64,000 nt of DNA from Nitrospinaceae bacterium (GTDB taxonomy: Bacteria > Nitrospinota > Nitrospinia > Nitrospinales > VA-1): NCBI GenBank assembly GCA_016763735.1, contig JAESTE010000006.1, forward strand, positions 778 to 64,777, read 5' to 3'. This document shows, one piece after another, positions 1-64,000 of this stretch. Each line of letters starts with the position of its first letter. Position 1 is the stretch's first letter. The notes beneath the pieces were generated by a model. It made no database searches. It saw nothing but the letters and a program-made list of their open reading frames with translations, and was not told the origin of the DNA. The translations under genes and the position numbers were made by a program.

Positions 1-6
1 CACAAC

Positions 7-3000
7 ATGACCCAGGCTTCCGAGACATACGCCCTGAACTCCAGTGCAGCCTGGCCTTCCGTCTTTGTCACGGTGGTGGGCACAACCTACCGCGACGACC
101 CGCTCCTGGCGTGGGACAGCACCTATATTGGGATGTGTACCTGCGACGAAGGATGGGGCAGTCGCGACGGATCCTGCACCAACGAACTGTGCAAGGTGGA
201 CCAGACCACCGGCAAGGTGTGTGGACACGGACACTGCACCTACAGTGACTGCGCCAACTACAGCCGTGGGGTGTTGCAGCCCTACACCGGCAACGAGGCG
301 GCCTTGTGCATGGGCACGTGCAATCTGAACTGTGCCACCCTTTCGTTCGGCGTGGCGTGTGCCGACTGCAACGCGTCGTGCACGGGTGGAGGCCGAGTGG
401 TGAACCAGAGCTTGACGTGGGCCACGGCGTGCGACGTGGGAACCTGCACATGCTTTACTGGGTGGACCACGGACTCAGACGGGTTGTGCACCCAGAGGCA
501 GTGCCCGCTAGACGACGCCGGGCTGGAGTGTGGTGGACTGTTGATCGTGAGTGGGGGTGGGATAGGGGCAGCGGAAGTGGGACAGAACGTGTGCGACCGG
601 TTTGGGGAGGAACCTGTGTGCCAATGCTGGAAGGCCATTGCTGACTTGACGCCAAGCCTAGCGTTTGCCACAGGACACTACAATGGCGATCGGCAGGCGT
701 GTGAGATGCGATACAACCAGAGTCAGTCGTGTATCTACGGGGGCGGTGCTGCCGCATGCGACGGACACGGGGTATGTGTGGCCCCAGGGTGTTCCGCCGA
801 CGCCGCCCTGGGTTCGTGGGTGGGGTGCACAGACCCAGCTGCCCGCGCGTCCCGTCCCAGCTGTGTGTGCACCAACATGGTGTACGAGGGAGCCTGGTGT
901 CAGTTGTCCAAGTGCAGCAACGTGCTGGGGGACACGCCATGTCGAGCGATCAGCGACGCCACCATTGCCACTGGAGTGTGTACCCTACATGACGACGGGA
1001 CGGGTGCGTCGTGTGTGTGCAACAGCAACAGTAGCCACGCGTACATGGGGCGCAACTGCGAGATCGAGGCCCGGGACTGCTTGTCCATCATCCCTGGCAA
1101 CAACCTGTTGTGCAGCGGCCATGGCGTCTGCGACTACCACAACACCAGTGGCCCTACATGTGACTGCGACTCGGGGTACACCGGTGCCACGTGCCAGAAC
1201 GCCACCATCTGCGGAGACAACTGCCCCCACGACAGAGGACGATGCATTGACGGGATCTGCGAGTGCTTCTTGACGTGGGACAGCACCAATTGCACACAAG
1301 ACCGGTGTGCCATGTACGGCGCCACGCGTATCGACCGTGACACCTGCAACTGCACGGCCGTAGGAGGCATCATGTACCCTAACGTCTTGCGTGACGTGCA
1401 GCCGTACGAGTCCTTCAAGGGGTGTCGCAAAGCCTGTCCGACTGAACTCGAGGCCGGCAGTCCCTTCTGGGGGCAGGAGTGTGGGCCCTGGGACTCGTTC
1501 AACTACACCCGGTGTCGTACCGTTGTCCCTGTGAACTCCACCACCGCCGTCACGTGCAGTTGTGGACTGTCGCCAGGCCTCCATCCCCTGACAGGCCTGG
1601 CCAGCAGCTGGATCACCAAGAGCACAGGAGTGTGTTCCCCCAAGTGTCTGCACTGCCCAGAGGTGGGCGGGGTGTGCAACAGTACCCCTAGCGCGTTCGA
1701 CGGCACCTACTGCAACAAGACCAAGTGCACCCGGCCCCATTCCACGTGGAACACGACCTCGAACGAATGCCTGTGCAGCCCGTCGTGGATGTTCAGCAGT
1801 TCAGACAACTGCCGCAACAACGTGTCACGCTGCACCCCCTCCCCCTTTTCCATGGACCCGGTGGACGACGGGGGTCAGACCTGCCAGTGCACGTTCCCGC
1901 TGCGTTCGGACCTGGACCCTACCTCTCCTACGTACCGGTTGTGTGTGTCGGCATGTGGAGCGTACGGTAACGCCAGTACGACGGGCAGTGGGTCATGTGT
2001 GTGCGACCGGATCCATAGTGGGACTTGGTGCAACGTGTCGTTGTGCGCCAGTCCGTTCGAGCCCTCGCTCTACGAAGACATATGCGATTGTCACAACACT
2101 CCGCAGTGGACCACGCGTTTCTGCAACACCAGCCGGTGTCACGGTGGCTCCGCGCGTACCGGCTTCACACCGGAGAGCGGCTCCCGCGTCCCCGCACGAG
2201 GGTGTGTCTGCTACCCAACCTGGGAAGGCGAGTTCTGCGAGATCCATCGGTGTGGCCATGGATTCCCTGGAGGTACCGGACCAACCGATGCATGTGTGTG
2301 TGACGACGGGTGGGCCGGGGACGACTGCCGGACCAATCGGTGCGCGGCCGAGGGGTTGGTGGACCCGGTGGCACTAGGGGGAGGTAGCTACAGCTGTGCG
2401 TGTGGGCCGGCAGGGACCCTCGTCGGGGGTGCTTGTGTGGCCACCTGTGTGAACGGAGTGTTGCACTCCAACGTCAACCGCTCGGGGTTGGTGTGTCTGT
2501 GTGAACCCCCTTGGTTTGGGGACACCTGCAGCCAGCATCCCTGTACAGACACCACACGGATGCAACCCACGGTGGTGGGCGCAACATCTGGTCCGTACGT
2601 GTGCAAGGACAAGTACATCAACGACGGCAGTGTGGCGTGTACTCGAGGCCTGTCTTGTGCCCAGTTCACTGCACGACATACCCAGTGGAAGCAGGACTCG
2701 ATCATCCTTGGCAACCGTACCTTCATACCGTCGCGTGTGTCCCAGCCCATCCAAAACCCGTTCAGCGAATTGGCGGCTGTCCCGTGCGGTTGCGACGACA
2801 GCCGGTACATCCCGTGGTCCATGGGCACGGTGTTTGTGGGGTGTGTGTTGGATTGTGTAGTGGCCAACCTAGACCCGAACCCCGATGCGTACGGCACGAC
2901 GATATTCGCTGACTACTGTGTGTGCAACCCCAACATAACATTTGCGAAAGGGGGCCAAGGTGATCTGTGCATTGGGAGTTTGACGCATCTGGCCGTGGCC

Positions 3001-3159
3001 GCCGGGGTTGTCCCCGCAGGAGTACGGGAGGATGTGCTTCGCTCTTCCCTGAAGACCTGGGAATGGAGCGTGTTGGGGGGTACCCTCCTCGTGTTTTCTG
3101 TTGTGGTCACGGTGGTTCGATACTGTCGGCGGCCTCGCTTGCCCCAGTCCAGTAAATAA
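7..3159 (+). CDS. EGF-like cysteine-rich repeat type I membrane glycoprotein (N-terminus probably upstream of the window)
   Basis: 1050-aa ORF. It has at least 10 tandem EGF-like modules, e.g. CTCDEGWGSRDGSC, CDCDSGYTGATCQNATIC, CVCDDGWAGDDCRTNRC, CLCEPPWFGDTCSQHPC. Many N-x-S/T sites. One C-terminal hydrophobic span (LGGTLLVFSVVVTVV) is followed by a basic tail RYCRRPRL. There is no signal peptide after Met at 7 and the frame is open back to base 1. AATAAA (3155-3160) overlaps the TAA stop. Confidence 0.75.
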   Translation: MTQASETYALNSSAAWPSVFVTVVGTTYRDDPLLAWDSTYIGMCTCDEGWGSRDGSCTNELCKVDQTTGKVCGHGHCTYSDCANYSRGVLQPYTGNEAALCMGTCNLNCATLSFGVACADCNASCTGGGRVVNQSLTWATACDVGTCTCFTGWTTDSDGLCTQRQCPLDDAGLECGGLLIVSGGGIGAAEVGQNVCDRFGEEPVCQCWKAIADLTPSLAFATGHYNGDRQACEMRYNQSQSCIYGGGAAACDGHGVCVAPGCSADAALGSWVGCTDPAARASRPSCVCTNMVYEGAWCQLSKCSNVLGDTPCRAISDATIATGVCTLHDDGTGASCVCNSNSSHAYMGRNCEIEARDCLSIIPGNNLLCSGHGVCDYHNTSGPTCDCDSGYTGATCQNATICGDNCPHDRGRCIDGICECFLTWDSTNCTQDRCAMYGATRIDRDTCNCTAVGGIMYPNVLRDVQPYESFKGCRKACPTELEAGSPFWGQECGPWDSFNYTRCRTVVPVNSTTAVTCSCGLSPGLHPLTGLASSWITKSTGVCSPKCLHCPEVGGVCNSTPSAFDGTYCNKTKCTRPHSTWNTTSNECLCSPSWMFSSSDNCRNNVSRCTPSPFSMDPVDDGGQTCQCTFPLRSDLDPTSPTYRLCVSACGAYGNASTTGSGSCVCDRIHSGTWCNVSLCASPFEPSLYEDICDCHNTPQWTTRFCNTSRCHGGSARTGFTPESGSRVPARGCVCYPTWEGEFCEIHRCGHGFPGGTGPTDACVCDDGWAGDDCRTNRCAAEGLVDPVALGGGSYSCACGPAGTLVGGACVATCVNGVLHSNVNRSGLVCLCEPPWFGDTCSQHPCTDTTRMQPTVVGATSGPYVCKDKYINDGSVACTRGLSCAQFTARHTQWKQDSIILGNRTFIPSRVSQPIQNPFSELAAVPCGCDDSRYIPWSMGTVFVGCVLDCVVANLDPNPDAYGTTIFADYCVCNPNITFAKGGQGDLCIGSLTHLAVAAGVVPAGVREDVLRSSLKTWEWSVLGGTLLVFSVVVTVVRYCRRPRLPQSSK

Positions 3160-3219: not shown

Positions 3220-6200
3220 ATGACAATTGGGAAGTCAATCGCCTCCGTGCACGCGGCGGTGTGCATCTGCTGGCTAAGTGTGCTACTGGGAATCCATCTA
3301 ACAGAAGGGTTCGAGATAATCTCGCAGGTGTCGAGCACAGAGGTGGTCAACGGCAATAGCCGCCTGGTGCATCGGGCCACCGTGCGGTGTACACAGGACG
3401 ACACCGGAACCCCCAACATCATAACCTTCCAAGACGCGAACAGCGGGACTGCACGTACCGTTACGTTCCTGTGCGAGCAGCCCTCGTACCGGTACGGGAA
3501 CTTTAAAACGGAGTATATACCAGAGGCCCAGTACCCGGTGATCTCCCGGGTGTGCCTGGTCCATGTGCACACCAACAACAGCGTTCTGAAGACAGACAGT
3601 GGGGGTGACGCGGACAATGGGGTGCAACAACCTCCGTTCCGTCGCCGTTTGCTGGGGACTGGGGGTGGGGATTACGACGACACGTTGCTCGACCCTGCAG
3701 TGGTACGCCCAGGGGCACGCCGGCTCTTGCTGTCCAACCAGGCCATCAACGGGATAGGGGTCCTCCTTCCTCGCGCAAAGGATCTGATCTGTACGTTCGG
3801 CGGGTGCCACAACGGCCTGCAAGACTTGAAGCAAGCCATGGCCATCATCCGGGCACGGCTAGACAAGATGACGGTCCAGTTCGGGACTATGACCACCGAG
3901 TTGGACAAGAACCGGTTGTTTGACCAAGACGTCTTGCGCCGCGACGAGATGACCGCTGACCAGATCGGGTTTATCCAGCAGGCGACTCTGCGGACACAGG
4001 GCGTGTTGTCTGGACTGAATGACGACATCGTGGATTTGGTCACGATCCAGGACGCATACGCCAATTCAACCAACCGTAACTTCGCTGCCCTGAAAGCACA
4101 GGTGTCCGCGAACGCCAATCTGAGCCGCACCGAGTGGAACGCCACGGTAAACTTCATGACGGAGACCACGCGTCGGTTCTACGAGATCGTGCATCGCATT
4201 GGAGGGGTGACGAGACAAGTCACGTCGATCGAAGTACTGCTGATGAGCATGTACAAGCAAGTGGAGATGCGGCGGTCTGTTATTTCACTGTTCCACGAGG
4301 TCTCAACGGTGGCAACGCCCATTGCAACCACGCCCTTCTTGGGGTATCTCGGGGAGGCGCCGTACACAGAAGCCCAGCTCAATGCTCTGGGCAATCGGAA
4401 CAGTGCCAGGCGTGTGGCCAGTGTATACTTGGAGCGTACGGTGCTGCGAGGAGGCACGGATTACTGGGCCCAATGGATCAACTTGACGTACGCCTGTGAC
4501 CCCAGGTATATCATCCAGAACATTGTACCGTTTCTGTCTGTCGAGGCCCTGTTCGGTTCGATTGGGCCGGGGGGGTGTTACAGTGGTTCTCCAGCGGCTC
4601 CGTGGACTTGCAATTGTGTCATCCTGGTGGAGACCGAGGAGTGCTTGGTCACGTCGCATCCGTCTCGGCGGTTTCCGTGGAGTTGGCCAGTCAACACGAC
4701 CTACCTCTTGCCCATGAACCCTGGGTCGTGCGGCTCCGGGGACGACTTGGTCCCGGGGTGCCAGAGCAAGTGCACATTGCCAATCGTGCATCGTGCCCCA
4801 CTCGTGCTGGACAACCGGGTTGGAGTGGAAGCGTACATGTCTGGCCTCTGTTCCGGGAGCGACGGGGACGTGGCGTTACCTGACGTCTCTGCCACCGCTA
4901 CTGTGCCCCCTGCCAAGGTCCGCATCTACTCCATGCTGTACGGTACCTACTCCGACTTGACATTGGACCCCGCGGTGGCCGGATCGGACGTGTGTTCGGG
5001 CGAGTTTGCTGTGGAACACCGGGCAGGACAGAACGAGGCGCTGTTCCTGGGGTACCACGTGTACTACATGTGGTTGCTCATGTACCAACGCGGAGTCAGC
5101 ACATGGATCCCCGAGGTCGAAGAACTGTTGATGGGCAAGGTCGCGTCCAACCTGTACTTCAGGGAGGTGCCATTCGACGTCGACGCCAAGTACCAGCAGA
5201 CCCACCGGTGTACTGAGTTCGCGTTCGCCAGGACCACGTCCACCAAGCTTCCGGTGTACGTTGACATCCTGAACAGTGTGCAGACCAGCATGCAGGTGAC
5301 GGTGGGAACCCAGTTGATCCAGGGCCCGCTCACTGCCTCGCCCGTGACGTCGTCGCATAGAATATCCATAGCGCTGAATGGGCTGACGTCGGGTGGGAAT
5401 GTTACAGTCACGACCGCCATCGACCTTAGCAACAATGTGGTCAACGTATTGCCGGGGTTGTTTCGGCGGGTGGGGCTATGGCGTGGCCCCACCAACTTGG
5501 AGTCTACATGGGACGTTCCAGGCGAGCAGCTGTGCCCTGGCGAGTTGCCACAGTCACGTGCCGCGTGTATGAACTACATATCCCAGGGCGCGAACTGGAC
5601 CGGCGTGACCGATTCATCGCCCATCACCATCGAGGAGTGGAAGTCCAATTACCACGCCTACTTCAATCCGCACAACCTGGGAGACAGTCCCAGTTCGTAC
5701 CGCAGGCAGTTGTTCACGTCCGGGACCCAGGCCACGTGCAGCGGTTCGTACGACATCGACGGAACCCCCATCGCCACCACCACGTCGGAGAACTTCTGGT
5801 GCGAGATCTTGCGCAACTACGACGTGAGCACGGTGGGCGCAGACCAGGAGGAGATGTGGTTCAAACCTCGAGCCTTTGCGTACACCACCACCGTGGAGGT
5901 TCCAGGCGGTTCGTTCATACAGAGGTTGACCAGCTTCTGCCCCAGTTCCTTGCGCGTCGTGGAGACAGCAGGGGACGTGCACGTGGAGCTGAACACCACC
6001 GTCCCCGAGCTTATAACCGTGCGGATCAAGGTGACCAGCCGGGACCTGCCCAGCGACCCGGCATGTGTGTTCCATGACCAAGACGATACTATGTCCATCA
6101 TCAAGCCCTTCAGACTGGATATCCCCTTCAGTGCATTGTGTAGTCCGTACATGCTGAACGTACGGCCGGTGGACAGTACTCAATGGTGTTATGGAGTCGA

Positions 6201-7155: not shown

Positions 7156-8258
7156 CGCGCGGGTTTTACTTTGCTCAGCCTCGAGACCCTCCCTGCCACA
7201 TTCTGTGCCCTCCTGTTGGTGCAGAACCACCCGACCGCCACCACGATAAACGTGGCCAGTGCCCCCGAGATGATAGCCAGCGCCCACATGGAGGTGTTGC
7301 TGTTGACAGGCGACGACGGTACGCGTACCACATGCACCGCGTTCAGGTCGTGTGCGCATTGCAATGAAGTGTAGTTCCACACACATATTCCGTTAAAGTG
7401 TCCGGCACATGCCCCCGCGCTGTAGGCGTTCGAACACCCGCCCAGGTGTGGGTCCACGTCACACATACGGTCCGACCCAGCGTTGCTCTGGCACCCGTCC
7501 AGTTGGTAGCAGATGTTTAGGCACTCCGAGTCGTCGTCCACACACGGCGCCCCCATCACCATGGCGTAGGCATTGTTGCACCCTTGTCGCCAGCTCTCGT
7601 CACGGGCCAAGGTGGTCACGGGTGCCGGGTGGCACAAGAACAGCTGATTGTCAGGCACACACCCCGGGGTGCTGGCACACTGAGTAGGGTCGAGGTCAGA
7701 CCACCCACAGTCTTCGTTGGACGCAGACAGACCGTAGCACGACTGAGTGGCCTTGCGCCACACACACCCGGGCGTGGACTCGCAGTAATTCATGGAACGG
7801 AAGGACGGACACATCTGTGCGTACCGTGGCGTGCAGTACCCCTGGATGCTGTCCCACTGGCACCGTGGGTCCGGGGGAGGAGGAATCATGTCTGTGTCCC
7901 CGTTCATCACCACCCCCAGGCAGTCCACGATCGAGGAGAAGGGCATGCTGTACACCGACGGGTGGCGGGCACGGCACACCGAGAACCAAGGGTGAGACGT
8001 GTTGGTGGCGTGACACACGTCCTCGTAATCGTCCCACTGGCACTCGACGCCGTGTGTGCAGCGGGTCCAGTCCAGCCGCGCGGAGCAGTCGTCTTGGGGA
8101 AACACACACACCCCAGTCGAGGTGTACGCGCATTCAGGGTGCAAACGACACAGTGCCGGGTTGTCTGAGAAGAGGGCGCATCCGGCGGCCGCGTGCGTGG
8201 ACACGGGTAGCCACAAGGTCAGCCACACCGCACCCCACCACCAGTGAAGAGGGGTCAT
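7152..8258 (-). CDS. cysteine-rich type I membrane glycoprotein
   Basis: The track ORF starts with TTG at 8264; the first ATG is at 8258. Signal peptide LHWWWGAVWLTLWLPVSTHAAAG. Repeated C-x(5-7)-C-x-W...C units (ECQWDDYEDVC, RCQWDSIQGYC, GCVWRKATQSC, GICVWNYTSLQC). TM WALAIISGALATFIVVAVGWF with a basic tail. Its stop codon overlaps the stop of the convergent gene within TTAA (7152-7155). Confidence 0.65.
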   Translation of the reverse strand: MTPLHWWWGAVWLTLWLPVSTHAAAGCALFSDNPALCRLHPECAYTSTGVCVFPQDDCSARLDWTRCTHGVECQWDDYEDVCHATNTSHPWFSVCRARHPSVYSMPFSSIVDCLGVVMNGDTDMIPPPPDPRCQWDSIQGYCTPRYAQMCPSFRSMNYCESTPGCVWRKATQSCYGLSASNEDCGWSDLDPTQCASTPGCVPDNQLFLCHPAPVTTLARDESWRQGCNNAYAMVMGAPCVDDDSECLNICYQLDGCQSNAGSDRMCDVDPHLGGCSNAYSAGACAGHFNGICVWNYTSLQCAHDLNAVHVVRVPSSPVNSNTSMWALAIISGALATFIVVAVGWFCTNRRAQNVAGRVSRLSKVKPAR

Positions 8259-19648: not shown

Positions 19649-19687
19649 GGACGGTTGGAATTGTCCCCGAGAGGATCGGCACACAGA

Positions 19688-52730: not shown

Positions 52731-52809
52731 GGTAACGCGAGAGAGAACTGAGAGTATGCCTTGGATCAAACCACCCACAAGAAGTCAACGAGGTCAAATG
52801 TCGACATCA

Positions 52810-52923
52810 AAAAGTCGACTTTGGAAGTCGACATTTAATGTTTTCTTATTACACCCTCTGTCGATGTCGACTTGGTGAAATGTCGACTTTCGAATCAACA
52901 CGGGTGAGTCGACCGGGGGGAGG
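52810..52923. promoter_or_regulatory. divergent promoter region with six GTCGAC motifs
   Basis: GTCGAC at 52810, 52824, 52837, 52876, 52892 and 52918. The region lies between the minus-strand ATG at 52730 and the plus-strand ATG at 53052. Typical units are AAGTCGACTTTGG and ATGTCGACTTGGTG. Confidence 0.55.
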
Positions 52924-56362: not shown

Positions 56363-59300
56363 AGAACATGCGCATCATCGCGCGCCATGTCTGACGAGGC
56401 ATCCCCGTCTGGATGAATTGAGGACATCCGTGCAGAAGACGACGAGGCTTCACGTGTGCCAGCATATGCAGCCGGCGCGCGTGCCACGATCTAAATATAT
56501 CAACCTTGTCTCCGTCCTTTAGTCTACCTGACCGCGCCACCTGTTCCAGTGCGTACCACCCCACGGTAGCGTCCGACAAACGTGGAGCGTCCAGCACCAG
56601 GTAGGGGGCCACACCCTTGGTGGGGAACATGCCACCGGTCGTGTCCATGTCGTTGGACGTCATGCCCATGGCCTCGTCCTCGTCTCCCGATTCTTCCTCT
56701 GATACTTCCTCTGGGTCGCTCTTGTAATCAGAGTCGTCTTCGCCGCTGTCGTCCACGATTAGAGTCGTCTTGGTGACGGCGTAGGACGACGACATACCCT
56801 TGAGCATACGTGGGGCTTGGTGCAGCACCAGGCTGGACAGTTGATGCAGACGGGTGTGCACGTCTGCCACGCTCTCGTGGGGTCGACGCCCGATACGGAT
56901 CTGGTTCATGCGTCGCACCAGGATGTCTTCTGATTTGACGCCTACCGGAACCTCCAGCTTGCCGTCAAACAACAACAGGTCACGGGCCTGGTCCGGCTCC
57001 GTCATGACGGTGTTGATCCAGGCCGCGCTGTCGTCTCGGTTGTAGTCGATAGGTCCAATGTCCATTGCGGTCTGCATGGCGTCGATCAGTTTCATGGTGG
57101 CGTGGGCCCGTTGCTGCTGTACCAAGAACAACTTGAGGTGGGACGCCAGCTTGCTCTGCCCGTACGACTGGACGGCTTCCGGAGTGGTGACAGTGCTTGC
57201 CACCAACTTCCGGGCCGCCTTGGGGATGTGTTGGATCCCGCCCAAGAACGACGCACGCTCCAGCAGTTCGCGGGTCAGGATGGAGTTGCGCAGAGAGGGC
57301 AGAGTACGGGTCATTTGCAAGGACGTGTCGGCGTTCCCGATCTTGTTGTCCCGTACGTGGCGCATGAGGGTTTGTAGGATGTTTGCCGAGCGCACACCCT
57401 TCAGTCCGGGTGTGTCAGGCATAGAGGTGTACTCCAGGTCGTCGCCGAGTTCTTTGAGTGACGCTGTCCATATCTCGGCCAGGGCTTTCTGGGCTTGTCC
57501 AGCGGCTCGTGCTTCCGCGAACTGTGCCACAGAATGCCACGGTCCGTCAGGGGAAGACAGTACACGGTTGAGGTTCTCCATGCCGGCCTCCATGACTTCG
57601 GGACCCGCGTTCCCTTGGGCCCGGGCGATACCGTAGTCGCGCAGAGACGTGAAGGCCTGGGTCACCAACGGGTCCAGTGTGTCCATGACGTCTCCCAGTT
57701 CACCCAGTTGACGCGTGGCCACGATCAACCAGCTGGCGGTAGTGAACTGTACGTTGGAAAGACGCGAGTCGTGTCGCATCTCCAACACGGTGGCGTGCTC
57801 CGTGACCCGTCCGGCCGCGGCAGAGCCTCCCACCAGATCAAACGACGTGGACGACCCCGAGGCACTGTCTGTGTCCAGGTCGGCGCCCAGGGTACGAGTG
57901 TAGCGTTTGAGTCGGGACACAATGCCACGAGCAGTGGACAAGGCACGAGGGGTTACGTCGTCCTTTTTCATTTGTGCCACGTACGTCAAGAGGGTGGCCC
58001 ATCCGTCCTGGTACGCCGCAGTGGTGAGGGCCAATTGACCATGGTTGCGGGAGGACGTGGCGTCTTCTATCCGCGTACGCAACGACAACACCACGTTGGC
58101 CAGGAACTGCACGTGAGCCACAGACGGTTCGGTGTGGGTGGGGTCCAGTCGCGGCGCAGGGATCATGGCCAGTTCCATCTTCTCGTCTTCGTCGTCTACA
58201 CGAGGGGGGAAGGACCCGGGTGCGTCCGTGCTACTGTTACGGTCGAGGACAGCAATCATGTCCCTGGTGTCTCGGATCTGCTGACCTCGACTGAGGAGCC
58301 GGGCCTGTGCCTCGTTGCTTTTCTTGGTAGGACGACCCTTCTTGGAGACCAGCTTGTTGTCTGTCTTCTGGCTGCGTTCCATGGCGGTCATTTTCTGCAT
58401 GAGGTCTCTGCGCTGAGGACCGTGGCGTGCTTCCACCAAGATGTTGTGCAGGGTGGCTCGAGTAGACGCAGTATGGGCAAACAGAGACACAGGGCGGCCG
58501 TACCGCGTGGAATCGTGGTCAGGGGTGTCCATGTCCATGCCTCGGCGTCCGGCAGCCACCAGGGTGTAGAGGGTAGACGTGTCCACCGAGGTAGGCACCA
58601 TGAGGGTGGCCAGCTGGAGCAACTGCCGGGCCTCAGCAGTGTACTGCAAGATGTCTCGCTCGGGTACACGGGCGTGCTGAACCCTGAACGTAGCGGCCAG
58701 GTCGGCGAACCGGTCATGGGCCGCGAACTCCTTGCGCATGAAGTGGACGGTAGCCACCAGGGTGTCAAGGGTGGACTCCCTGACGTTCTCTCGTGACGCC
58801 AAGACCATGAGATCGGCCCACGCACGGCGCCCAGTCTTTGACTCTGCCCGGATACTTGACGACGTGAACGCCAGCCACTTGTACTCTTCTGTGTTGCGCA
58901 ACGTGGCAATGGTCTGGGGCTCGTCTGTGTCGTCTGCAGTGAGTGCACTCGCGGGCAACAACCCGGCGTCACCTAGCGCCCCCCATATAGCTGTATTGAG
59001 GAGTGCCGGTACATCTTCGTCGTCGTCGCTGCTGCCACTGCTGCTCTCTTCCTCCTGCTCGTCTTCCTCTTCCTCCACGTCTTCGTCGCTGGCGTCCTCG
59101 TCCACGTACACCGAGACACGGATGTTCTTGTGGTGTATCCGTCGCTTGTCTTTGCGGCTGGTCTTGCGTTCCACGGCTCGTTCGGCAGAGGCCAGGGCCA
59201 CTACGTTCTCGTGGAACAGGAGTCCCACCTCAATGGCCGCCCCCAACGCCACACCGGACACACCACGTAGGGTGACATGGCCCAATTTGGACTCGGGTGT

Positions 59301-62300
59301 GGCCTTGCGGCGTGCGGCGAACTCCCGGGCGTCCAGTCGAACCGGATGGTCAGGGTACATGGACACGTCGGCCACCGTCTCGGCACGCACATTGGCCAGA
59401 GTGGTGTGGGCCTGGCGCTGGGCTTGACGTAGGGTGTCTTCCGTGGCCTGTGTTTGCTTGATGCGCTGCTCGGCCAAGTCAAAGTCAGACTTGTGGGACA
59501 CCAACACTCCCTTCAGGTTGGCTACTGGGGCCTTTCTGGCGTGTGCCGCCTCGATCTGAGCGTCCACCTCTTCCATACGGGTGTGTGCAGCGTCACGTTC
59601 TTTGGCAAACCAGGCCTTTTGGTGCACGGCCCGGTCCACCAACTCGGAGCGTACCTTCAGACGGGTCTCTGCGTGGGCCACCTTGCGTTCGTGGTACTGT
59701 TTGAACGCCTGGCCCTGGGCCCGGACCACCAATGTGCCCCATCCGCCTTGGTCAGCTGTGGATTCAAAGTTCTGGGTCCACGACGTCACCAACCGATGCG
59801 ACACCTCCGAGTCCACAGACAGCTGGGTCTCCAACGCGGTCATGGCGGCCTGGTGCACCGGCTTGGACGTGTCGGTGACGTACTTGTTGAAGAACTTCAT
59901 GCCGTGACGGGTCAGCAAGGCACGAACGGTGATGTGGCGTGCGGGCGGGAAGTACCCCTTGACCCCGAAGTACGCCATGATAAACCGTCGGGTGCCCAAG
60001 CTGAACTCGTCGTCCACGTTGATGCGTCGTACCATGTGCCACGCATTGGCTTTGCGTTTCTTGGGGACACCCTTCTCGTCTTCGTCTTCGCTGGTCCCGT
60101 CAGAAGTCCCGTCCGAGGTCCCGTCCGAGGTCCACCCGTCCTCTGACCCCGACGACTCGTCGCCTGCTTCCCGTCCAGGGAGTGCGGCCGGGTTAAGCAA
60201 CAGGAAGCGGTTGCGCAAGGCTATGCGGGCCCGCTTCAAGCTCACACGTGTCACCTGGTCCAAGTCAAACTCCTGGTCTCGGGCCACAGTGACCAGGCTG
60301 GCTTGGCGTTGGTTCCATTCTCTGGTGCTGGTAAGGCAGCGCTTGTCGCGTAGCAGCAGCAACAACAACTGTTCACGGTGGTTGTTCAGCTCCACCGACC
60401 GGTCGCCCTCCAGGGTCTGCACGATGGCAGTGGCCCATTGCATCAACCACTCGGGGGAGGTGGTGGACTTGGGGGCGAACTGCTTGAGTTCCTCCACAAA
60501 CTCCATCCTCTGCGACGACACCGCTGCGTCTACTTGTGCGTGGGTGCTGTCTGCGGCATTCACCAGACGGGTGGCCTTGGCGTGGGGAAGGTCGGAGGAA
60601 GAGTCGTCGTCGGAGTCACGGGCCTTGCGTTTGGTGGTGACCACTGCCTTGTCGTCCTCGTCTTCTTCTGTGTCTGCCTCGGCGAACGCGTCCACGTCCA
60701 TGTCTTTCTCGTCCGGGGCTTCGTTGTCTTTCTCTTCCATGTCCACGTCCATGTCTTCCTCTTCCGATCCACGACCGAACGACTTGGGTACACCGTGTGC
60801 GCGGGCCCGTGCCAGGACACGTCTCATCTCCCCCGAGTCTCCGTCGCTGCACAGGGCGTCGTACACCACAGACAGGGACCGCCCGGTGTCGTACACAGAC
60901 TTGATGAGGTCCATGCCTTGCCTGCTGAGCCGTCCCCCGCCCATGCTGGCACGGCTGTCGGACATGTCGGACAGCTGGTTGATGACGATGGTGGACAGTT
61001 GGGTGCTGGTGGCGTCAGGTTTGTCTTGGGCCAGACGCACCACCCGCGTGGCCACCGCCATCATGATCTCGCGGTACACGTCACGGTGCAGGTGGGCAAA
61101 CTGGTTGGCGGCCTTGTTCACGTTCTTCGATTCCCTTCTGATGGCTTTGGCGTCTTGCTCCTTCAGGGGTTTCTTCTTCCACGCGGCCAAACGTGTGGAG
61201 GCTTCCTCCCAGAGGTTCACGACATGGGGACCCCAGTCCAGTGACAAAGTGATCTGACGCACCAGGTGACGGGCCAACAGACCCACCAAGGGCTGGAGAG
61301 ACTTCATGGTCTGTCGCGCGGCTGCCTGGTCCATGCCCAGTGCGCCACTGTCCGACACCACCCGGTGAAGCAGCTCGTGTTCGGCCAGTACGTTGAGTGA
61401 GGTGTCCACTGCTTCGGGGTGCCACAGACTCTGGTGGGTAATCATCAACCGGTCGATTGCGTAGATCGAAGGGAACTCGGGCTCGTCCACGGCTACCCCG
61501 TAGGTCGCCCCAGAGAAGGTGAAGGGGGTCGCCACGATCAAAACCCCCGACGGGTGCTTGGGCAGCAGAGAAGAGGGGATGCCTCCCAGCGGCACCGACT
61601 CGGCGTACATGGACACCAAGGCGTTGACGTGATGGATGGACTCCTGCAGGATCATGGCAGGGATGGGTAGCATGGGCTGGGGATTGAACAGCTCGCGCAA
61701 CTGGGCGTCGCGGCGTATGTCCACAGGCCCCAGCAGGTCGCACCGGTCGAAGCCACAGAACATAGTCTGCTGTTCCAGCCAGGCGCTCACCCGGAAGATC
61801 CACGCGTACCGGTGGCACACGGGGCACATGAAGATCACGCGTTCCTGTAAGTGGTAGGTGTGCATCTGGCGTCGCTCCTGGGTACGTTCGCTCAACAGGC
61901 TGCGCAAGAGCATGGGGTCGTACGCGTGCTTGTTGGCCCGGACTTCGTGGGCGTCTTTGATGGCCAGCAGCAGACGGGACCGTGCGTTCGAACCTGACGA
62001 CAGTTCGGTGTTGCGTGCACCAGGCATGAGGGAAGCGTGTGCTTCGTCGTCGAAGACCAGTCGGGCTTTGAAGGCCGCTTGCTTCTTGCCAGTCAACCCT
62101 CTGAGCTGGTCCGGGGTGGCGAAGGCGGCGTCCTCTCGAGCAGGGATCAAGTGGCTCAGCGGGTGTTGAGGCTTGTTCAATTGTGATCCGTAGCGGAACC
62201 CGTGTTCTAGGCGGGGTGCACGGTATACGAAGCGGGCGGCACTGACGGCGACCGTGTGGGGGTCGTTGATGGGGGCGATCGACAGTCGGATGGCGTTGAT

Positions 62301-62690
62301 CATGGCGGTCACAGAGTGGAACTTCACCCCGTTGGCTTGGTACAGCAGGTCTGTGCGGCGCTGATGTTCCCGGGCAGCACGGGTGTAGGCCTTGCGTGCC
62401 TTGGCCCGGGGCGCACACAGCAGGATGGGCATGTCGGGCAGACGACGCCACTTGGCCCACCGTATGACCCGCTTCTGCACGCCGGCGTGGTCGGCAGGGT
62501 CGTGGGGCAGCAGTACGTTGGACATGGCCACCGTGGCGTTGTCTGCGTGGGCCCAGGGGTGCACCATGATTATGGTCCAGGGCATGAGGTTGTACGCCAT
62601 GGCCGCTTTCCCGGCATTGGGGGTCCACAGGGCATTGACCTCCACCCGCAGCCGGGCCACGGGCTTTCCCTTGCGTTCGGTCGAGGCCAT
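56307..62690 (-). CDS. giant protein of unknown function (about 2127 aa)
   Basis: The track ORF starts with TTG at 62759; the first ATG is at 62690 (MASTERKGKPV). Mostly helical-looking sequence with several acidic tracts and a DGTSDGTSDGTS repeat. No catalytic motif recognised by eye. Confidence 0.7.
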   Translation of the reverse strand: MASTERKGKPVARLRVEVNALWTPNAGKAAMAYNLMPWTIIMVHPWAHADNATVAMSNVLLPHDPADHAGVQKRVIRWAKWRRLPDMPILLCAPRAKARKAYTRAAREHQRRTDLLYQANGVKFHSVTAMINAIRLSIAPINDPHTVAVSAARFVYRAPRLEHGFRYGSQLNKPQHPLSHLIPAREDAAFATPDQLRGLTGKKQAAFKARLVFDDEAHASLMPGARNTELSSGSNARSRLLLAIKDAHEVRANKHAYDPMLLRSLLSERTQERRQMHTYHLQERVIFMCPVCHRYAWIFRVSAWLEQQTMFCGFDRCDLLGPVDIRRDAQLRELFNPQPMLPIPAMILQESIHHVNALVSMYAESVPLGGIPSSLLPKHPSGVLIVATPFTFSGATYGVAVDEPEFPSIYAIDRLMITHQSLWHPEAVDTSLNVLAEHELLHRVVSDSGALGMDQAAARQTMKSLQPLVGLLARHLVRQITLSLDWGPHVVNLWEEASTRLAAWKKKPLKEQDAKAIRRESKNVNKAANQFAHLHRDVYREIMMAVATRVVRLAQDKPDATSTQLSTIVINQLSDMSDSRASMGGGRLSRQGMDLIKSVYDTGRSLSVVYDALCSDGDSGEMRRVLARARAHGVPKSFGRGSEEEDMDVDMEEKDNEAPDEKDMDVDAFAEADTEEDEDDKAVVTTKRKARDSDDDSSSDLPHAKATRLVNAADSTHAQVDAAVSSQRMEFVEELKQFAPKSTTSPEWLMQWATAIVQTLEGDRSVELNNHREQLLLLLLRDKRCLTSTREWNQRQASLVTVARDQEFDLDQVTRVSLKRARIALRNRFLLLNPAALPGREAGDESSGSEDGWTSDGTSDGTSDGTSEDEDEKGVPKKRKANAWHMVRRINVDDEFSLGTRRFIMAYFGVKGYFPPARHITVRALLTRHGMKFFNKYVTDTSKPVHQAAMTALETQLSVDSEVSHRLVTSWTQNFESTADQGGWGTLVVRAQGQAFKQYHERKVAHAETRLKVRSELVDRAVHQKAWFAKERDAAHTRMEEVDAQIEAAHARKAPVANLKGVLVSHKSDFDLAEQRIKQTQATEDTLRQAQRQAHTTLANVRAETVADVSMYPDHPVRLDAREFAARRKATPESKLGHVTLRGVSGVALGAAIEVGLLFHENVVALASAERAVERKTSRKDKRRIHHKNIRVSVYVDEDASDEDVEEEEDEQEEESSSGSSDDDEDVPALLNTAIWGALGDAGLLPASALTADDTDEPQTIATLRNTEEYKWLAFTSSSIRAESKTGRRAWADLMVLASRENVRESTLDTLVATVHFMRKEFAAHDRFADLAATFRVQHARVPERDILQYTAEARQLLQLATLMVPTSVDTSTLYTLVAAGRRGMDMDTPDHDSTRYGRPVSLFAHTASTRATLHNILVEARHGPQRRDLMQKMTAMERSQKTDNKLVSKKGRPTKKSNEAQARLLSRGQQIRDTRDMIAVLDRNSSTDAPGSFPPRVDDEDEKMELAMIPAPRLDPTHTEPSVAHVQFLANVVLSLRTRIEDATSSRNHGQLALTTAAYQDGWATLLTYVAQMKKDDVTPRALSTARGIVSRLKRYTRTLGADLDTDSASGSSTSFDLVGGSAAAGRVTEHATVLEMRHDSRLSNVQFTTASWLIVATRQLGELGDVMDTLDPLVTQAFTSLRDYGIARAQGNAGPEVMEAGMENLNRVLSSPDGPWHSVAQFAEARAAGQAQKALAEIWTASLKELGDDLEYTSMPDTPGLKGVRSANILQTLMRHVRDNKIGNADTSLQMTRTLPSLRNSILTRELLERASFLGGIQHIPKAARKLVASTVTTPEAVQSYGQSKLASHLKLFLVQQQRAHATMKLIDAMQTAMDIGPIDYNRDDSAAWINTVMTEPDQARDLLLFDGKLEVPVGVKSEDILVRRMNQIRIGRRPHESVADVHTRLHQLSSLVLHQAPRMLKGMSSSYAVTKTTLIVDDSGEDDSDYKSDPEEVSEEESGDEDEAMGMTSNDMDTTGGMFPTKGVAPYLVLDAPRLSDATVGWYALEQVARSGRLKDGDKVDIFRSWHARRLHMLAHVKPRRLLHGCPQFIQTGMPRQTWRAMMRMFSSGADLGRLDRYALAAPA

Positions 62691-63131: not shown

Positions 63132-63201
63132 GCACAGACACTTGTACCTATTCGTTTCGTAAAACAGTTTACACCAGGCCTCCTTTCAGTTGCCAGAACA
63201 C

Positions 63202-64000
63202 ATGGCGTCTGCGGCGTGCGTACCCATTGACTTTTCACGCGCCTTCTGCAGCAGCAGCCCGGTAGGAACCGCCTTGTTGGCCCGTCTGACCAAGAACCAT
63301 GCCCAGGTCGCGGCCGGCATACGCATCAACACAAAGGACGAGATGGGCTTCGTGTGCGACCTGTGTGTGTGGGCCGAGGCCGTGTACGCCCAGCCCAGTG
63401 TGAATGCCCGGACCGCCGAGTTGTGGTTCCAGTTTGACAACGGGTTCGAGTGCAACTGCATCTGGGCCCCGGTCGTGGCGTACACCGTGCGTTTGGTACA
63501 GCATGTGTTGCACCACGCCGTGGCCCAAGACCAGGACTTGGTCGAGACCACGTCGAGCCTGCGCGCACAGTGCCAAGCCCTGGTCACCTTGGTGGGCATT
63601 GTACGGTACGTGAACCTGCGGGTGCTGGACGTATGGACCGACGCCCCGCTCGCCGCCATGTCTCTTACCAAGGAAGGGATGAAGGCATTGGAGGGGGCAT
63701 GTTTGGCGTACCTGCTGTGGACCGAGTCGAGGATGTACCGCTCGCAGGCCAACACCTATGCCCAGACACTGGCCCAGTCCACGGGACTGGACCATGCCCA
63801 CCTGGACTGCACAAACGCCACCGAGCAGAAGGATCACACCACCGGGTTGGGGGCAGAACAGTGTCTGCTGGCGGCCGAAGCGTTGTTTGGGTGTTACATC
63901 ACGCTCCGGGACAAGGTGCCGTCGTCCATGAACCTGGGACCGGGTAGCACTCCCCTGATCAACCTGTGCACCAAGCGCCTGGACATGAAGGTGGGGCAGC
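63202..64000 (+). CDS. hypothetical protein, 3'-truncated by the window (not in the ORF track)
   Basis: ATG at 63202 (gaacacATGg) opens a frame with no stop to base 64000, at least 266 codons. It reads MASAACVPIDFSRAFCSSSPVGTALLARLTKNH... with strongly G/C-rich third positions. The listed ORFs here (63186..63755 minus, 63450..63947 plus) look like shadow frames. Confidence 0.6.
   Translation, partial: MASAACVPIDFSRAFCSSSPVGTALLARLTKNHAQVAAGIRINTKDEMGFVCDLCVWAEAVYAQPSVNARTAELWFQFDNGFECNCIWAPVVAYTVRLVQHVLHHAVAQDQDLVETTSSLRAQCQALVTLVGIVRYVNLRVLDVWTDAPLAAMSLTKEGMKALEGACLAYLLWTESRMYRSQANTYAQTLAQSTGLDHAHLDCTNATEQKDHTTGLGAEQCLLAAEALFGCYITLRDKVPSSMNLGPGSTPLINLCTKRLDMKVGQ

What the first reader, a model, noticed from the sequence alone, without database searches (positions are those of the whole stretch)
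1..64000. Overall: unassigned nucleus-dependent large DNA virus-like genome segment
Several features point the same way. These are near-zero intergenic spacing, a majority of orphan ORFs, paralogous families, and strongly diverged eukaryote-like genes (H4, ESCRT-III, PriL, FEN1, SLX1). Short canonical introns, Kozak-like ACCATG starts and poly(A) hexamers add to the picture. Together they suggest a large dsDNA virus that uses the host nuclear expression machinery, or an endogenised copy. The glycoprotein block, acylated small proteins, giant orphan proteins and palindromic ori-like element give it a herpes-like flavour. The informational genes are more like those of nucleocytoplasmic large DNA viruses. 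I cannot place it from this window.
Basis: inference. Interest (0 to 1): 0.6.

Follow-up and report, generated by a model that had tools for sequence, protein, structure and literature searches.

The report
Probable mirusvirus fragment mis-binned as bacterium
This 64-kb stretch is almost certainly part of the genome of an uncultivated, enveloped large DNA virus that infects a single-celled eukaryote and depends on its nucleus; it is most likely a very divergent mirusvirus from deep-sea crustal water, and GenBank currently labels it as a bacterium.

Summary
The composite observation largely holds. I count 38 genes, 91% coding, with a median gap of 78 bp. Only 5 of 38 proteins have any Pfam signal. 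Start codons have a Kozak-like context and no Shine-Dalgarno. There are three paralogues of one family, two giant proteins, about 9 membrane or glycoproteins, three MG(C/S)C N-termini, and two very large palindromes. H4-, SLX1-, FEN1- and PriL-like genes each have weak but consistent support. The "ESCRT-III" gene is only structurally compatible. Only one convincing short GT-AG intron was found, and poly(A) hexamers occur at about 6 genes.

Source: the contig is GenBank "Nitrospinaceae bacterium" MAG DNA (JKY23_...), from North Pond subseafloor crustal fluid. It is mis-binned.

Placement: Mirusviricota fits best. That phylum combines a herpes-type virion with histones, Snf7, RING and SLX1-like genes, about 13% Pfam annotation, about 80-nt introns with a CTGAC branch site, and GC of 25-72%. 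Mirusvirus capsid genes were reported from this same dataset. A distant relative of the FEN-like gene block lies beside a herpes-type terminase exon. No capsid, portal or terminase gene is recognisable in the window itself, so membership is unproven (about 0.6).

New details: GTCGAC promoter-like clusters, and stop-overlapping A(A/T)TAAA.

The parts
7..3159 (+). EGF-rich, Cys-rich membrane glycoprotein of 1050 aa (107 Cys, 22 N-x-S/T sequons, C-terminal TM segment)
   Evidence: Pfam EGF_2 (24.5 bits against a 22.1-bit cut-off) and EGF_Teneurin (25.5 against 24.3). Composition and TM segment.
3220..7155 (+). 1311-aa type I membrane glycoprotein with a signal peptide, long heptad-like helices, a TM segment at residues 1199-1217 and a tail of about 100 aa. 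Candidate fusion or attachment protein (inferred).
   Evidence: No Pfam or PDB relative.
7152..8258 (-). 368-aa Cys-rich type I membrane protein. Its stop overlaps the stop of the previous gene (TTAA).
8320..16482 (-). Giant 2720-aa protein with an acidic central region and no detectable domain
18440..19696 (-). 418-aa Cys-rich protein with a RING-like C-x2-C...C-x-H...C-x2-C motif
   Evidence: Weak Sina_RING hit, E = 0.018, residues 136-169
19750..20385 (-). Ankyrin-repeat protein
   Evidence: Pfam Ank_4, 26.6 bits against a 22.7-bit cut-off
21286..23076 (+). Protein resembling the primase large subunit (PriL). It has a 'TPCM..H' motif and a C-terminal Cys cluster.
   Evidence: Pfam DNA_primase_lrg, E = 3.4e-4, 20.5 bits against a 22.4-bit cut-off. 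No PDB hit. The motifs were read from the translation.
30451..30805 (.). Palindrome I2 (118-nt arms, 83% complementary), lying between divergent gene starts and carrying GTCGAC sites
   Evidence: DNA fold -109 kcal/mol, z = -15.3.
30832..32669 (+). Paralogue A, made of two exons (30832-31098 and 31182-32669). They are joined by an 83-nt GT-AG intron candidate: GTACGT donor, CTGAC 25 nt before the CAG acceptor. An alternative donor at 31111 gives a 71-nt intron.
   Evidence: Exon 1 against paralogue B: 4 of 1000 shuffles reach the observed score. Exon 1 has an ACCATG start and exon 2 has none.
35425..36207 (+). 260-aa type II membrane protein. In relatives its homologue is linked to the Snf7-like gene.
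   Evidence: 36% identity to the gene next to the Snf7-like gene in L017 and L018. TM segment.
39317..40120 (+). N-terminally MGSC (myristoyl/palmitoyl-type) helical protein of about 267 aa: a hairpin, three further helices and an acidic tail. Candidate ESCRT-III/Snf7-like protein.
   Evidence: Relatives all start MGNC. AF2 pLDDT above 90 for residues 25-115, with helices 16-70, 77-136, 141-168 and 175-186. Foldseek returns ESCRT-III chains among generic helical hairpins, none at E <= 1e-3. No Pfam Snf7 hit.
40170..40722 (.). Palindrome I1 (178-nt arms, 93% complementary, 197-nt centre) with 11-nt AAGTATT repeats, lying between convergent gene ends. Candidate replication origin (inferred).
   Evidence: DNA fold -214 kcal/mol, z = -30.7.
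40829..44310 (-). Paralogues B (40829-42748) and C (42832-44310) of the same family as A. All three share a C-terminal [DE][LV][VI]xxY[VL] motif.
45197..46813 (-). FEN1/XPG-like 5' nuclease (MGIDT..., GEADL, SIDSD and GTDY motifs). It anchors a conserved five-gene block.
   Evidence: The profile's 13 PDB hits are all FEN1.
47638..48942 (+). 434-aa Cys-rich protein, conserved next to the FEN-like gene in all relatives. An upstream ORF (46899-47918, another frame) overlaps it; a 94-nt intron at 47625-47718 is possible but not needed.
48939..49727 (+). SLX1-like GIY-YIG nuclease
   Evidence: The top 4 PDB hits are SLX1, E = 0.008-0.02. Pfam GIY-YIG E = 0.023. 48-56% identity to relatives.
50973..51692 (-). 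Histone-fold protein closest to H4, with a long Lys/Pro/acidic N-terminal tail
   Evidence: The top 59 PDB hits are all H4, best E = 0.03, covering the whole fold. The positional counterpart in L005 passes the Pfam Histone cut-off (32.4 bits against 26.4).
51842..52730 (-). Two tandem small genes with MGC N-termini: 52395-52730 (MGCTLS) and 51842-52333 (MGCGTS). Candidate acylated membrane-associated proteins.
52800..52913 (.). Largest intergenic GTCGAC cluster: 6 copies in a divergent promoter region. It is one of 9 such clusters.
   Evidence: 61 sites against 30.6 +/- 5.4 expected; 29 sites lie in the 9.8% of the window that is intergenic
56307..62690 (-). Giant 2127-aa protein. It is weakly conserved in relative L004, which has a 2318-aa ORF in the same arrangement next to a homologue of 63202-64000.

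Best explanation
The window is 64 kb of a 65.7-kb metagenomic contig. It comes from an uncultivated, enveloped large dsDNA virus of a unicellular eukaryote that lives off the host nucleus, most likely a highly divergent member of the phylum Mirusviricota. The contig was binned by mistake into a 'Nitrospinaceae bacterium' MAG from North Pond (Mid-Atlantic Ridge flank) crustal fluid.

SHOWN
- The genome is compact and its genes are largely orphans.
- Start codons have a eukaryote-type context and no Shine-Dalgarno motif.
- It encodes many secretory-pathway glycoproteins.
- It has diverged histone-H4-, SLX1-, FEN1- and PriL-like genes.
- A small family of MG(N/S)C-initiated helical proteins is present.
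- There are two giant palindromes.
- GTCGAC clusters sit upstream of genes.
- A five-gene block is conserved in environmental relatives.

INFERRED MECHANISM
- Genes are transcribed by host RNA polymerase II from TATA-less promoters whose palindromic GTCGAC sites bind a dimeric factor.
- mRNAs are capped, scanned to A-x-C-ATG starts, occasionally spliced (83-nt intron at 31099-31181) and polyadenylated. For some genes the A(A/T)TAAA signal overlaps the stop codon.
- The genome is replicated in the nucleus by host polymerases. Viral accessory factors help: a PriL-like protein, a flap nuclease, and an SLX1-like structure-specific nuclease.
- The genome is chromatinised in part with a viral H4-like histone.
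- The large palindromes may serve as origins.
- Virions acquire an envelope studded with the EGF-rich and fusion-like glycoproteins. Acylated small proteins and the myristoylated ESCRT-III-like protein help.
For: Source
- The FEN-like protein is 100% identical to MBL4664425.1 (JKY23_00460), and ORF 32767-33744 to JKY23_00395, both on a 65,708-bp contig.
- The same genes occur on TULL18-1_SAMN07571238/45 scaffolds and in SRR5988111. These are North Pond crustal fluids (PMC6736579).

Eukaryotic host
- Kozak-like starts and no SD motifs.
- EGF domains, 10% Cys and 22 sequons in the first glycoprotein.
- MGNC/MGSC N-termini conserved across homologues.
- An intron candidate with GTACGT...CTGAC...CAG.
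- An ankyrin-repeat gene.

Virus rather than cell
- No tRNA genes, no Rfam RNAs, no housekeeping domains and no P-loop NTPase.
- 13% of genes have any Pfam signal.

Mirusvirus
- PMC12768974 lists, beyond the virion genes, histones, Snf7, RING fingers, 13-14% Pfam annotation, about 80-nt GT-AG introns with a CTGAC branch consensus in Styxvirales, GC of 25-72%, and loss of polymerase genes in nuclear lineages.
- Its supplement lists about 950-aa EGF proteins and Slx1-like GIY-YIG genes.
- It reports 7 mirusvirus capsid genes in TULL18-1, the same dataset.
- A relative of the FEN-like gene (26% identity), with the same divergent neighbour, lies on a 66.7-kb Hainich groundwater contig about 2.5 kb from an ORF carrying the herpes-type terminase Walker A motif 'TPRRYGKTW'. 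That ORF's best Pfam hit is DNA_pack_N, and its best PDB hits are HSV pUL15.
Against: - No virion hallmark gene (HK97-fold capsid protein, triplex, portal, terminase, jelly-roll protein) is recognisable in the window. No Walker A motif exists in any frame.
- The one structure prediction aimed at a capsid-module candidate failed, with pLDDT 29.
- The Snf7-like gene and its relatives do not match Pfam Snf7, whereas the mirusvirus Snf7 listed in the paper does.
- The link to a terminase is indirect. It rests on one distant relative, weak scores (Pfam E = 0.0028, PDB E = 0.35), and the assumption that the FEN-like block was not transferred horizontally.
- No relatives were found in IMG/VR or in the GTDB genome set.
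- I could not verify that this contig belongs to any published mirusvirus MAG.
Confidence: 0.6

Rival explanations
1. A nucleus-dependent large DNA virus of a protist that belongs to an undescribed lineage outside Mirusviricota: a wholly new group, or a very derived nucleocytovirus of the pandoravirus, mollivirus or medusavirus type. Its biology would be as described above, but its virion module would be different.
For: - No mirusvirus hallmark gene is present in the window.
- Relatives are extremely scarce: 7 for the FEN-like gene among 5.8 billion proteins, and 4 for the Snf7-like gene among 1.84 billion representatives.
- The Snf7-like gene does not match Pfam Snf7.
- From my own knowledge, about 60% GC, introns, orphan genes and ankyrin paralogues also fit pandoravirus- or mollivirus-like viruses, and histones fit medusaviruses.
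Against: - No nucleocytovirus core domain was detected among 38 genes: no capsid_NCLDV, A32, D5, PolB, VLTF3 or RNA polymerase, and no P-loop at all.
- The only packaging gene seen near a family relative is herpes/mirus-type.
- Medvedeva et al. describe the combination of histone, Snf7-like, RING and SLX1-like genes as a mirusvirus signature and report that Snf7 is absent from nucleocytoviruses.
Confidence: 0.22
2. An endogenised viral element, or a gene-dense stretch of a small protist chromosome, rather than a free virus genome.
For: - The expression signals are nuclear-type.
- Integrated and episomal mirusviruses are known (PMC12768974).
- The contig ends could not be inspected: the NCBI contig is not in the gene-position index.
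Against: - Architecture and composition are uniform across all 64 kb.
- There are no housekeeping genes, no tRNAs and no repeat or transposon decay.
- Reading frames are intact, including two of more than 2000 codons.
- Several related genomes at 30-44% identity coexist in the same samples, as expected of a virus population.
Confidence: 0.1
3. A herpesvirus of an animal (alloherpesvirus- or malacoherpesvirus-like) shed into the sampled water.
For: About 60% GC, giant tegument-sized proteins, a glycoprotein block, small acylated proteins and palindromic ori-like elements all resemble herpesviruses.
Against: - No herpes core family was detected.
- A histone and a Snf7-like gene are not herpesvirus features.
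- Multiple divergent relatives occur in aquifer and groundwater metagenomes, including a 0.1-um filter fraction (contig name). This points to microbial hosts.
Confidence: 0.05
4. A virus or extrachromosomal element of an archaeon. Histone, ESCRT-III, PriL and FEN1 are archaeal as well as eukaryotic signatures, and tight gene packing is typical of prokaryotes.
For: The gene list and the compactness fit, and the contig came from a prokaryote-dominated aquifer and was binned with a prokaryote.
Against: - SD-like motifs are depleted (2/37), and the A(-3)/C(-1) start context is strong.
- The window has EGF domains and sequon-rich, Cys-rich ectodomains.
- It has conserved MGNC N-termini, a GT-AG intron candidate, and a histone with a long tail that is closest to H4.
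- Its GIY-YIG nuclease is of the eukaryotic SLX1 type.
Confidence: 0.03

Closest known systems
Mirusviricota, especially the intron-containing, nucleus-adapted and 'cryptic' lineages described by Medvedeva et al. 2025 (PMC12768974)
   Same: - Habitat: mirusvirus capsid genes were reported from this very North Pond dataset.
- GC content lies within the 25-72% range.
- About 13% of genes have a Pfam annotation and many are singletons.
- The window has histone, RING-like, Snf7-like, SLX1-like GIY-YIG and roughly 1000-aa EGF proteins, plus giant ORFs.
- It has a GT-AG intron of about 80 nt with a CTGAC branch motif.
- No polymerase or RNA polymerase genes are present in 64 kb.
- A distant relative of the FEN-like block sits next to a herpes-type terminase exon.
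   Different: - No HK97-type capsid, triplex, portal, terminase or jelly-roll gene can be recognised in the window.
- The Snf7-like gene is too diverged for Pfam.
- No heliorhodopsin, TBP or Snf2 gene is present here.
- GTCGAC promoter clusters, the giant palindromes and the PriL-like and FEN-like genes did not turn up in the parts of that paper and its (partly truncated) supplement that I read and searched.
Herpesvirales (notably Alloherpesviridae)
   Same: High GC, nuclear-type expression, giant tegument-sized proteins, a cluster of type I glycoproteins, small N-terminally acylated proteins (compare UL11; from my own knowledge), and palindromic ori-like elements in intergenic regions.
   Different: No herpes core gene is detectable. 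The window encodes a histone and an ESCRT-III-like protein. Its relatives occur as diverse populations in aquifer metagenomes rather than in animals.
Nucleus-dependent nucleocytoviruses (Pandoravirus, Mollivirus, Medusavirus)
   Same: About 60% GC, many orphan genes, some spliceosomal introns, ankyrin-repeat genes, and histones in medusaviruses (all from my own knowledge).
   Different: No nucleocytovirus core domain is found in 38 genes and no P-loop ATPase exists anywhere. Medvedeva et al. report Snf7-type genes as absent from nucleocytoviruses.

Membership tests
Mirusviricota | HK97-fold major capsid protein of the mirusvirus/herpes type | tested here: inconclusive
   No ORF in the window matches by Pfam or PDB sequence search. 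Sequence tools cannot see this fold, and the window is perhaps a quarter of a typical 265-kb genome. Seven such genes exist in the same dataset.
Mirusviricota | Herpes-type terminase (ATPase plus nuclease) | tested here: inconclusive
   No Walker A motif exists in any of the six frames of the window. A distant relative's contig (L013) has a 'TPRRYGKTW' ORF whose best Pfam hit is DNA_pack_N (E = 0.0028) and whose best PDB hits are HSV pUL15 (E = 0.35).
Mirusviricota | Portal, triplex 1 and 2, conserved jelly-roll protein | not testable with these tools
   These need confident structure models. The single-sequence AF2 model of the best candidate (32767-33744) gave pLDDT 29, and no homologues were available for an alignment.
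Mirusviricota | Accessory core set: histone, Snf7, RING finger (PMC12768974) | tested here: inconclusive
   The histone is H4-like, weak but consistent. The RING-like hit has E = 0.018. The Snf7-like gene has a compatible fold only and no Pfam Snf7 hit.
Mirusviricota | Spliceosomal GT-AG introns of about 80 nt | tested here: inconclusive
   One candidate: 83 nt, GTACGT...CTGAC...CAG. It is supported by the frame change, the start-codon contexts and paralogue similarity (shuffle p about 0.004). No RNA data are available.
Nucleocytoviricota | Double-jelly-roll capsid, A32 packaging ATPase, D5 primase-helicase, PolB, VLTF3 | tested here: not met
   None was detected by Pfam among the ORFs scanned, which cover 34 of the 38 genes in my map (four small ones, 20464-21177, 30832-31098, 51842-52333 and 52395-52730, were not scanned). 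No P-loop motif is present. This holds for the window only.
Herpesvirales | Core genes recognisable by Pfam (Herpes_MCP, DNA_pack_N/C, UL52/UL5, PolB, gB) | tested here: not met
   No hit in the window. The large glycoprotein has no PDB relative.
ESCRT-III / Snf7 (gene 39317-40120) | Alpha1-alpha2 hairpin plus alpha3-alpha5 helices, an acidic C-terminus, and sequence membership in the Snf7 family | tested here: inconclusive
   The helix layout and acidic tail are present, with high confidence for the hairpin. CHMP2A/3, Snf7, CHMP1B, Asgard ESCRT-IIIB and Vipp1/PspA chains appear in the Foldseek top 50, but none reaches E <= 1e-3 and generic hairpins are mixed in. Pfam and PDB sequence searches are negative.
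FEN1/XPG 5' nucleases (gene 45197-46813) | N and I nuclease motifs with acidic metal ligands, and an H3TH motif | tested here: inconclusive
   The alignment shows an invariant MGID N-terminus, D51, GEADL, SIDSD and G-x-DY. The PDB hits to the family profile are all FEN1 but at E about 0.6. hhalign gives probability 42% over the H3TH region. No family member has a Pfam XPG hit.
Histone H4 (gene 50973-51692) | Histone fold most similar to H4 | tested here: met
   The top 59 PDB matches are all H4 and cover the whole fold (residues 147-233), though at E = 0.03-0.4. The syntenic counterpart in L005 passes the Pfam Histone cut-off.
SLX1-type GIY-YIG nuclease (gene 48939-49727) | GIY-YIG (URI) catalytic motif of the SLX1 type | tested here: met
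   The four best PDB matches are all SLX1, E = 0.008-0.02. Pfam GIY-YIG has E = 0.023, below the cut-off. No SLX1 RING domain was seen.

The most novel reading that the evidence does not exclude
The contig represents a deep-branching, so far undescribed lineage of nucleus-replicating large DNA viruses of subsurface and aquifer protists. It would be either a sister group of the known mirusvirus orders or outside them. It would have its own regulatory code (clustered palindromic GTCGAC promoter sites), giant palindromic origins, and a replication toolkit of PriL, FEN1, SLX1 and histone without a polymerase.
Probability: 0.25. Interest if true: 0.75.

Novelty: new member of a known kind. Interest (0 to 1): 0.5.

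Why it matters
- It is a concrete case of eukaryotic-virus DNA deposited in GenBank as a bacterial MAG (Nitrospinaceae). This contaminates bacterial pangenomes and hides viral diversity.
- It puts a 65-kb piece of a very divergent, probably mirusvirus-like genome in the cold, oxic subseafloor crustal aquifer, with relatives in continental groundwater. This implies active protist hosts and their nuclear viruses in those habitats.
- It offers testable regulatory features for a virus group with no culture system for these lineages: GTCGAC promoter clusters, poly(A) signals that overlap stop codons, and two giant palindromes as origin candidates.
- It suggests a candidate minimal viral contribution to host-driven nuclear replication and budding: PriL-like, FEN1-like and SLX1-like proteins, an H4-like histone, and a myristoylated ESCRT-III-like protein.

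Tried and rejected
- A known herpesvirus such as CyHV-3 (my first guess from GC and giant ORFs). Rejected because no database identity was found.
- IMG/VR exact-match and protein scans: nothing. The scan with the Snf7-like alignment could not run.
- GTDB genome set: nothing (the first try failed for lack of a conserved stretch).
- Single-sequence AF2 of ORF 32767-33744, a candidate capsid-module protein: pLDDT 29, unusable.
- Exhaustive HMMER search with the Snf7-like ORF: only 4 true relatives, none annotated by Pfam.
- PDB sequence searches found nothing for the FEN-like protein as a single sequence, the PriL-like protein or the large glycoprotein.
- Pfam on eight FEN-like family members: no XPG domain.
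- A generic intron scan gave about 230 candidates, almost all chance. I accept one and leave one ambiguous.
- Look-ups meant to reach the contig ends failed, because the NCBI contig is not in the gene-position index.
- No Walker B motif or nuclease exon of the terminase was found in the held part of L013.
- A literature search for the run and sample accessions found only the paper that identifies the samples.

Full report
**What is in the window**

GC is an even 57-62% throughout. I built a codon-bias gene map by training on the long ORFs. Real genes show GC3 of about 0.77 and GC2 of about 0.45. The map gives 38 genes on both strands, 90.8% coding sequence, and 35 gaps with a median of 78 bp. 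Two convergent genes share a TTAA double stop. There are no tRNA genes and no Rfam RNAs. No Walker A motif occurs in any of the six frames.

**Where it comes from**

The FEN-like protein is 100% identical to GenBank MBL4664425.1, 'MAG: hypothetical protein JKY23_00460 [Nitrospinaceae bacterium]', on a 65,708-bp contig. ORF 32767-33744 is identical to JKY23_00395 on the same contig. The same genes also sit on ENA scaffolds TULL18-1_SAMN07571238 and ..245, and on a Logan contig of SRR5988111. Those BioSamples are North Pond crustal-fluid metagenomes from the cold, oxic subseafloor aquifer (PMC6736579). The window is therefore a metagenomic contig binned into a bacterial genome. Nothing in it is bacterial.

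- *Orphans.* Pfam gives above-threshold hits only for EGF domains (7-3159) and an ankyrin repeat (19750-20385). Sub-threshold hits are PriL (21286-23076), GIY-YIG (48939-49727) and a RING (18440-19696).
  - The 5.8-billion-protein search found nothing for the PriL-like ORF, only itself for ORF 32767-33744, and 7 relatives at 30-44% identity for the FEN-like gene.
  - An exhaustive HMMER pass over 1.84 billion representatives found 4 real relatives of the Snf7-like ORF.
- *Paralogues.* A three-member family and a two-member pair are confirmed.
- *Start context.* A at -3 occurs in 22/37 genes and C at -1 in 27/37 (p about 1e-6 each). SD-like words occur in 2/37 against 4.9 expected.
- *Membrane proteins.* The block at 7-8258 encodes three type I proteins. 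The first has 107 Cys and 22 sequons. About six more membrane proteins lie elsewhere.
- *Acylation-type N-termini.* These are MGCTLS (52395-52730), MGCGTS (51842-52333) and MGSC (39317-40120).
- *Giant proteins.* There are two, of 2720 and 2127 aa. The second is weakly conserved in a relative.
- *Palindromes.* There are two, both far beyond chance.
  - I1 spans 40170-40722. It has 178-nt arms, 11-nt AAGTATT repeats and a DNA fold z of -30.7.
  - I2 spans 30451-30805, with a DNA fold z of -15.3.
- *Poly(A) hexamers.* A(A/T)TAAA is rare (12 copies). It overlaps the stop codon of five genes and follows one more within 35 nt, so it is real but not general.
- *Introns.* A generic scan is dominated by chance.
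  - One candidate is convincing. ORF 30832-31098 has an ACCATG start. ORF 31182-32669 has no acceptable start. They lie in different frames, 83 nt apart.
  - The gap is bounded by GTACGT and CAG, with CTGAC 25 nt before the acceptor. Exon 1 resembles the N-terminal region of paralogue B: 4 of 1000 shuffles reach the observed score.
  - A second candidate (47625-47718) is not needed, because the relative's 418-aa protein matches the unspliced 434-aa ORF.

**The 'eukaryote-like' genes**

- *H4.* The 59 best PDB matches are all histone H4 across the whole fold, though at E = 0.03-0.4. The gene at the same position in relative L005 passes Pfam's Histone cut-off.
- *SLX1.* The four best PDB matches are all SLX1, E = 0.008-0.02.
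- *FEN1.*
  - The family alignment keeps MGID at the N-terminus, plus GEADL, SIDSD and G-x-DY.
  - Its profile hits only FEN1 chains in the PDB, at E about 0.6.
  - No family member hits Pfam XPG.
- *PriL.* Pfam gives 20.5 bits against a 22.4-bit cut-off. By eye I see a 'TPCM...H' motif and a terminal Cys cluster. There is no PDB hit.
- *ESCRT-III.*
  - There is no sequence evidence.
  - A five-sequence alignment shows that every relative starts MGNC. The window gene's second ATG (CCACCATGG, MGSC) is therefore the real start.
  - AF2 on that alignment gives a confident helical hairpin (pLDDT above 90 for residues 25-115) followed by three helices and an acidic tail.
  - Foldseek lists CHMP2A/3, Snf7, CHMP1B, Asgard ESCRT-IIIB and Vipp1/PspA among its top 50. 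It also lists generic hairpins, and nothing reaches E <= 1e-3. The verdict is compatible but unproven.

**Relatives and synteny**

The FEN-like gene has relatives in several places:

- the same North Pond samples;
- JGI sample 3300021579;
- ENA assemblies ERZ27251982 and others;
- a 66.7-kb Hainich groundwater contig (L013, GC 31%).

The block FEN-like | 434-aa Cys-rich protein | SLX1-like | a gene of about 260-300 aa | histone keeps its order and orientation between the window and L005. The pairing of a giant protein with the homologue of 63202-64000 recurs in L004. The Snf7-like gene's relatives sit next to a homologue of window gene 35425-36207.

In L013, about 2.5 kb from the FEN-like gene, an ORF carries 'TPRRYGKTW'. 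Its best Pfam hit is the herpesvirus DNA_pack_N family (E = 0.0028) and its best PDB hits are HSV-1 terminase pUL15 (E = 0.35). The ORF then runs into AT-rich junk, as an interrupted exon would. L013 also has a near-perfect palindrome with arms of about 100 nt between convergent genes.

**Placing it**

This matches the published description of Mirusviricota. Medvedeva et al. 2025 (PMC12768974) report:

- GC of 25-72%, and 13-14% of genes with Pfam annotation in the nuclear lineages;
- many singletons;
- GT-AG introns peaking near 80 nt, with a CTGAC branch consensus in Styxvirales;
- loss of polymerase and RNA polymerase genes;
- histones, Snf7 (reported absent from nucleocytoviruses) and RING fingers among the non-virion core functions;
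- EGF proteins of about 950 aa and Slx1-like GIY-YIG genes;
- mirusvirus capsid genes in oceanic crust (Tully et al., the same dataset; 7 MCPs in TULL18-1) and in groundwater.

The window fits all of these. However, it contains no recognisable capsid, triplex, portal or terminase gene, and my one attempt to model a candidate failed. Membership therefore stays inferred. I put about 0.85 on 'virus of a unicellular eukaryote with nuclear expression' and about 0.6 on 'mirusvirus'.

**Rivals**

- *A non-mirus lineage of nuclear large DNA viruses (0.22).* This cannot be excluded without the virion genes.
- *An endogenised element or protist chromosome (0.10).* The uniform architecture, intact giant ORFs, absence of housekeeping genes, and coexisting divergent relatives all argue against it.
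- *An animal herpesvirus (0.05).* The histone, the Snf7-like gene and the microbial-style population structure argue against it.
- *An archaeal element (0.03).* The start context, EGF glycoproteins, MGNC N-termini, the intron and the SLX1/H4 affinities argue against it.

**New details not in the finding**

- The palindromic hexamer GTCGAC occurs 61 times against 30.6 +/- 5.4 expected. 29 copies lie in the 9.8% of the window that is intergenic.
  - The copies form clusters of 2-6 spaced 12-17 bp apart, upstream of at least nine genes or divergent gene pairs.
  - A 56-nt module is repeated at 20399-20454 and 21186-21241.
  - There are essentially no TATAAA boxes.
  - I read these clusters as binding sites for a dimeric transcription factor. 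That is an inference.

Noticed in passing
window 19688-19722, 20420-20454, 21164-21323, 30493-30510, 30746, 42787-42808, 44313-44403, 46815, 52800-52913: The palindromic hexamer GTCGAC is clustered (2-6 copies, 12-17 bp apart) in upstream and divergent intergenic regions. There are 61 sites against 30.6 +/- 5.4 expected, and 29 of them lie in the 9.8% of the window that is non-coding. This is a candidate promoter or transcription-factor site. Relatives at 52-58% GC have few or none.
   Followed up: partly
window 20399-20454 and 21186-21241: A 56-nt module containing three GTCGAC sites is repeated at 86% identity on either side of gene 20464-21177, which looks like a duplicated promoter cassette.
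   Followed up: no
window 3155, 20468(-), 34820(-), 42836(-), 45197(-); also 52364(-): A(A/T)TAAA hexamers overlap the stop codon itself: 4 of 13 TAA stops, plus one TGA. One more lies 31 nt after a stop. This suggests poly(A) signals fused to stops in a compact genome.
   Followed up: partly
window 30451-30805: A second large palindrome (118-nt arms, DNA fold z = -15.3) lies between divergent gene starts. It is unrelated in sequence to the one at 40170-40722. Its arms create mirror-image pseudo-ORFs (MGKFGRPPEY and MTKFGRPPEF).
   Followed up: partly
L013 12574-12868 (Hainich groundwater contig ERZ1292625.398, GC 31%): The distant relative also carries a near-perfect palindrome with arms of about 100 nt between convergent genes, close to its FEN-like block. 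Large palindromes may be a shared feature of this virus group.
   Followed up: no
L013 13887-14693 (-): This ORF has the herpes-type terminase Walker A motif 'TPRRYGKTW' and then runs into AT-rich junk. No Walker B motif or nuclease exon occurs within the 21 kb held here, which is consistent with an intron or with trans-splicing as described for mirusviruses.
   Followed up: partly
window 39287-39317: The Snf7-like gene most likely starts at the second ATG (39317, CCACCATGG), giving MGSC. All four relatives start MGNC, a myristoylation/palmitoylation-type N-terminus like that of CHMP6/Vps20 (the comparison is from my own knowledge).
   Followed up: yes
window 46899-47918 and 47638-48942: Two same-strand ORFs in different frames overlap by 280 nt. 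The coding signal switches frame between about 47650 and 47750. This could be overlapping genes, a 94-nt intron (47625-47718), or an assembly frameshift. It is unresolved.
   Followed up: partly
whole window; GenBank locus tags JKY23_00395 and JKY23_00460: The public record assigns this DNA to a Nitrospinaceae bacterium MAG, which is a binning error that should be flagged. The PriL-like ORF did not retrieve even itself from the protein collection, although its neighbours are there.
   Followed up: partly
L008 107-1027: A related contig from the same North Pond sample encodes a strong TPR_12 repeat protein (Pfam E = 3.6e-99). This looks like a gene acquired from a cell in an otherwise orphan-rich context.
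   Followed up: no
window 38220-38843: A 624-bp non-coding stretch lies between divergent genes. It has no GTCGAC sites, no palindrome and no convincing ORF. Its function is unknown.
   Followed up: no
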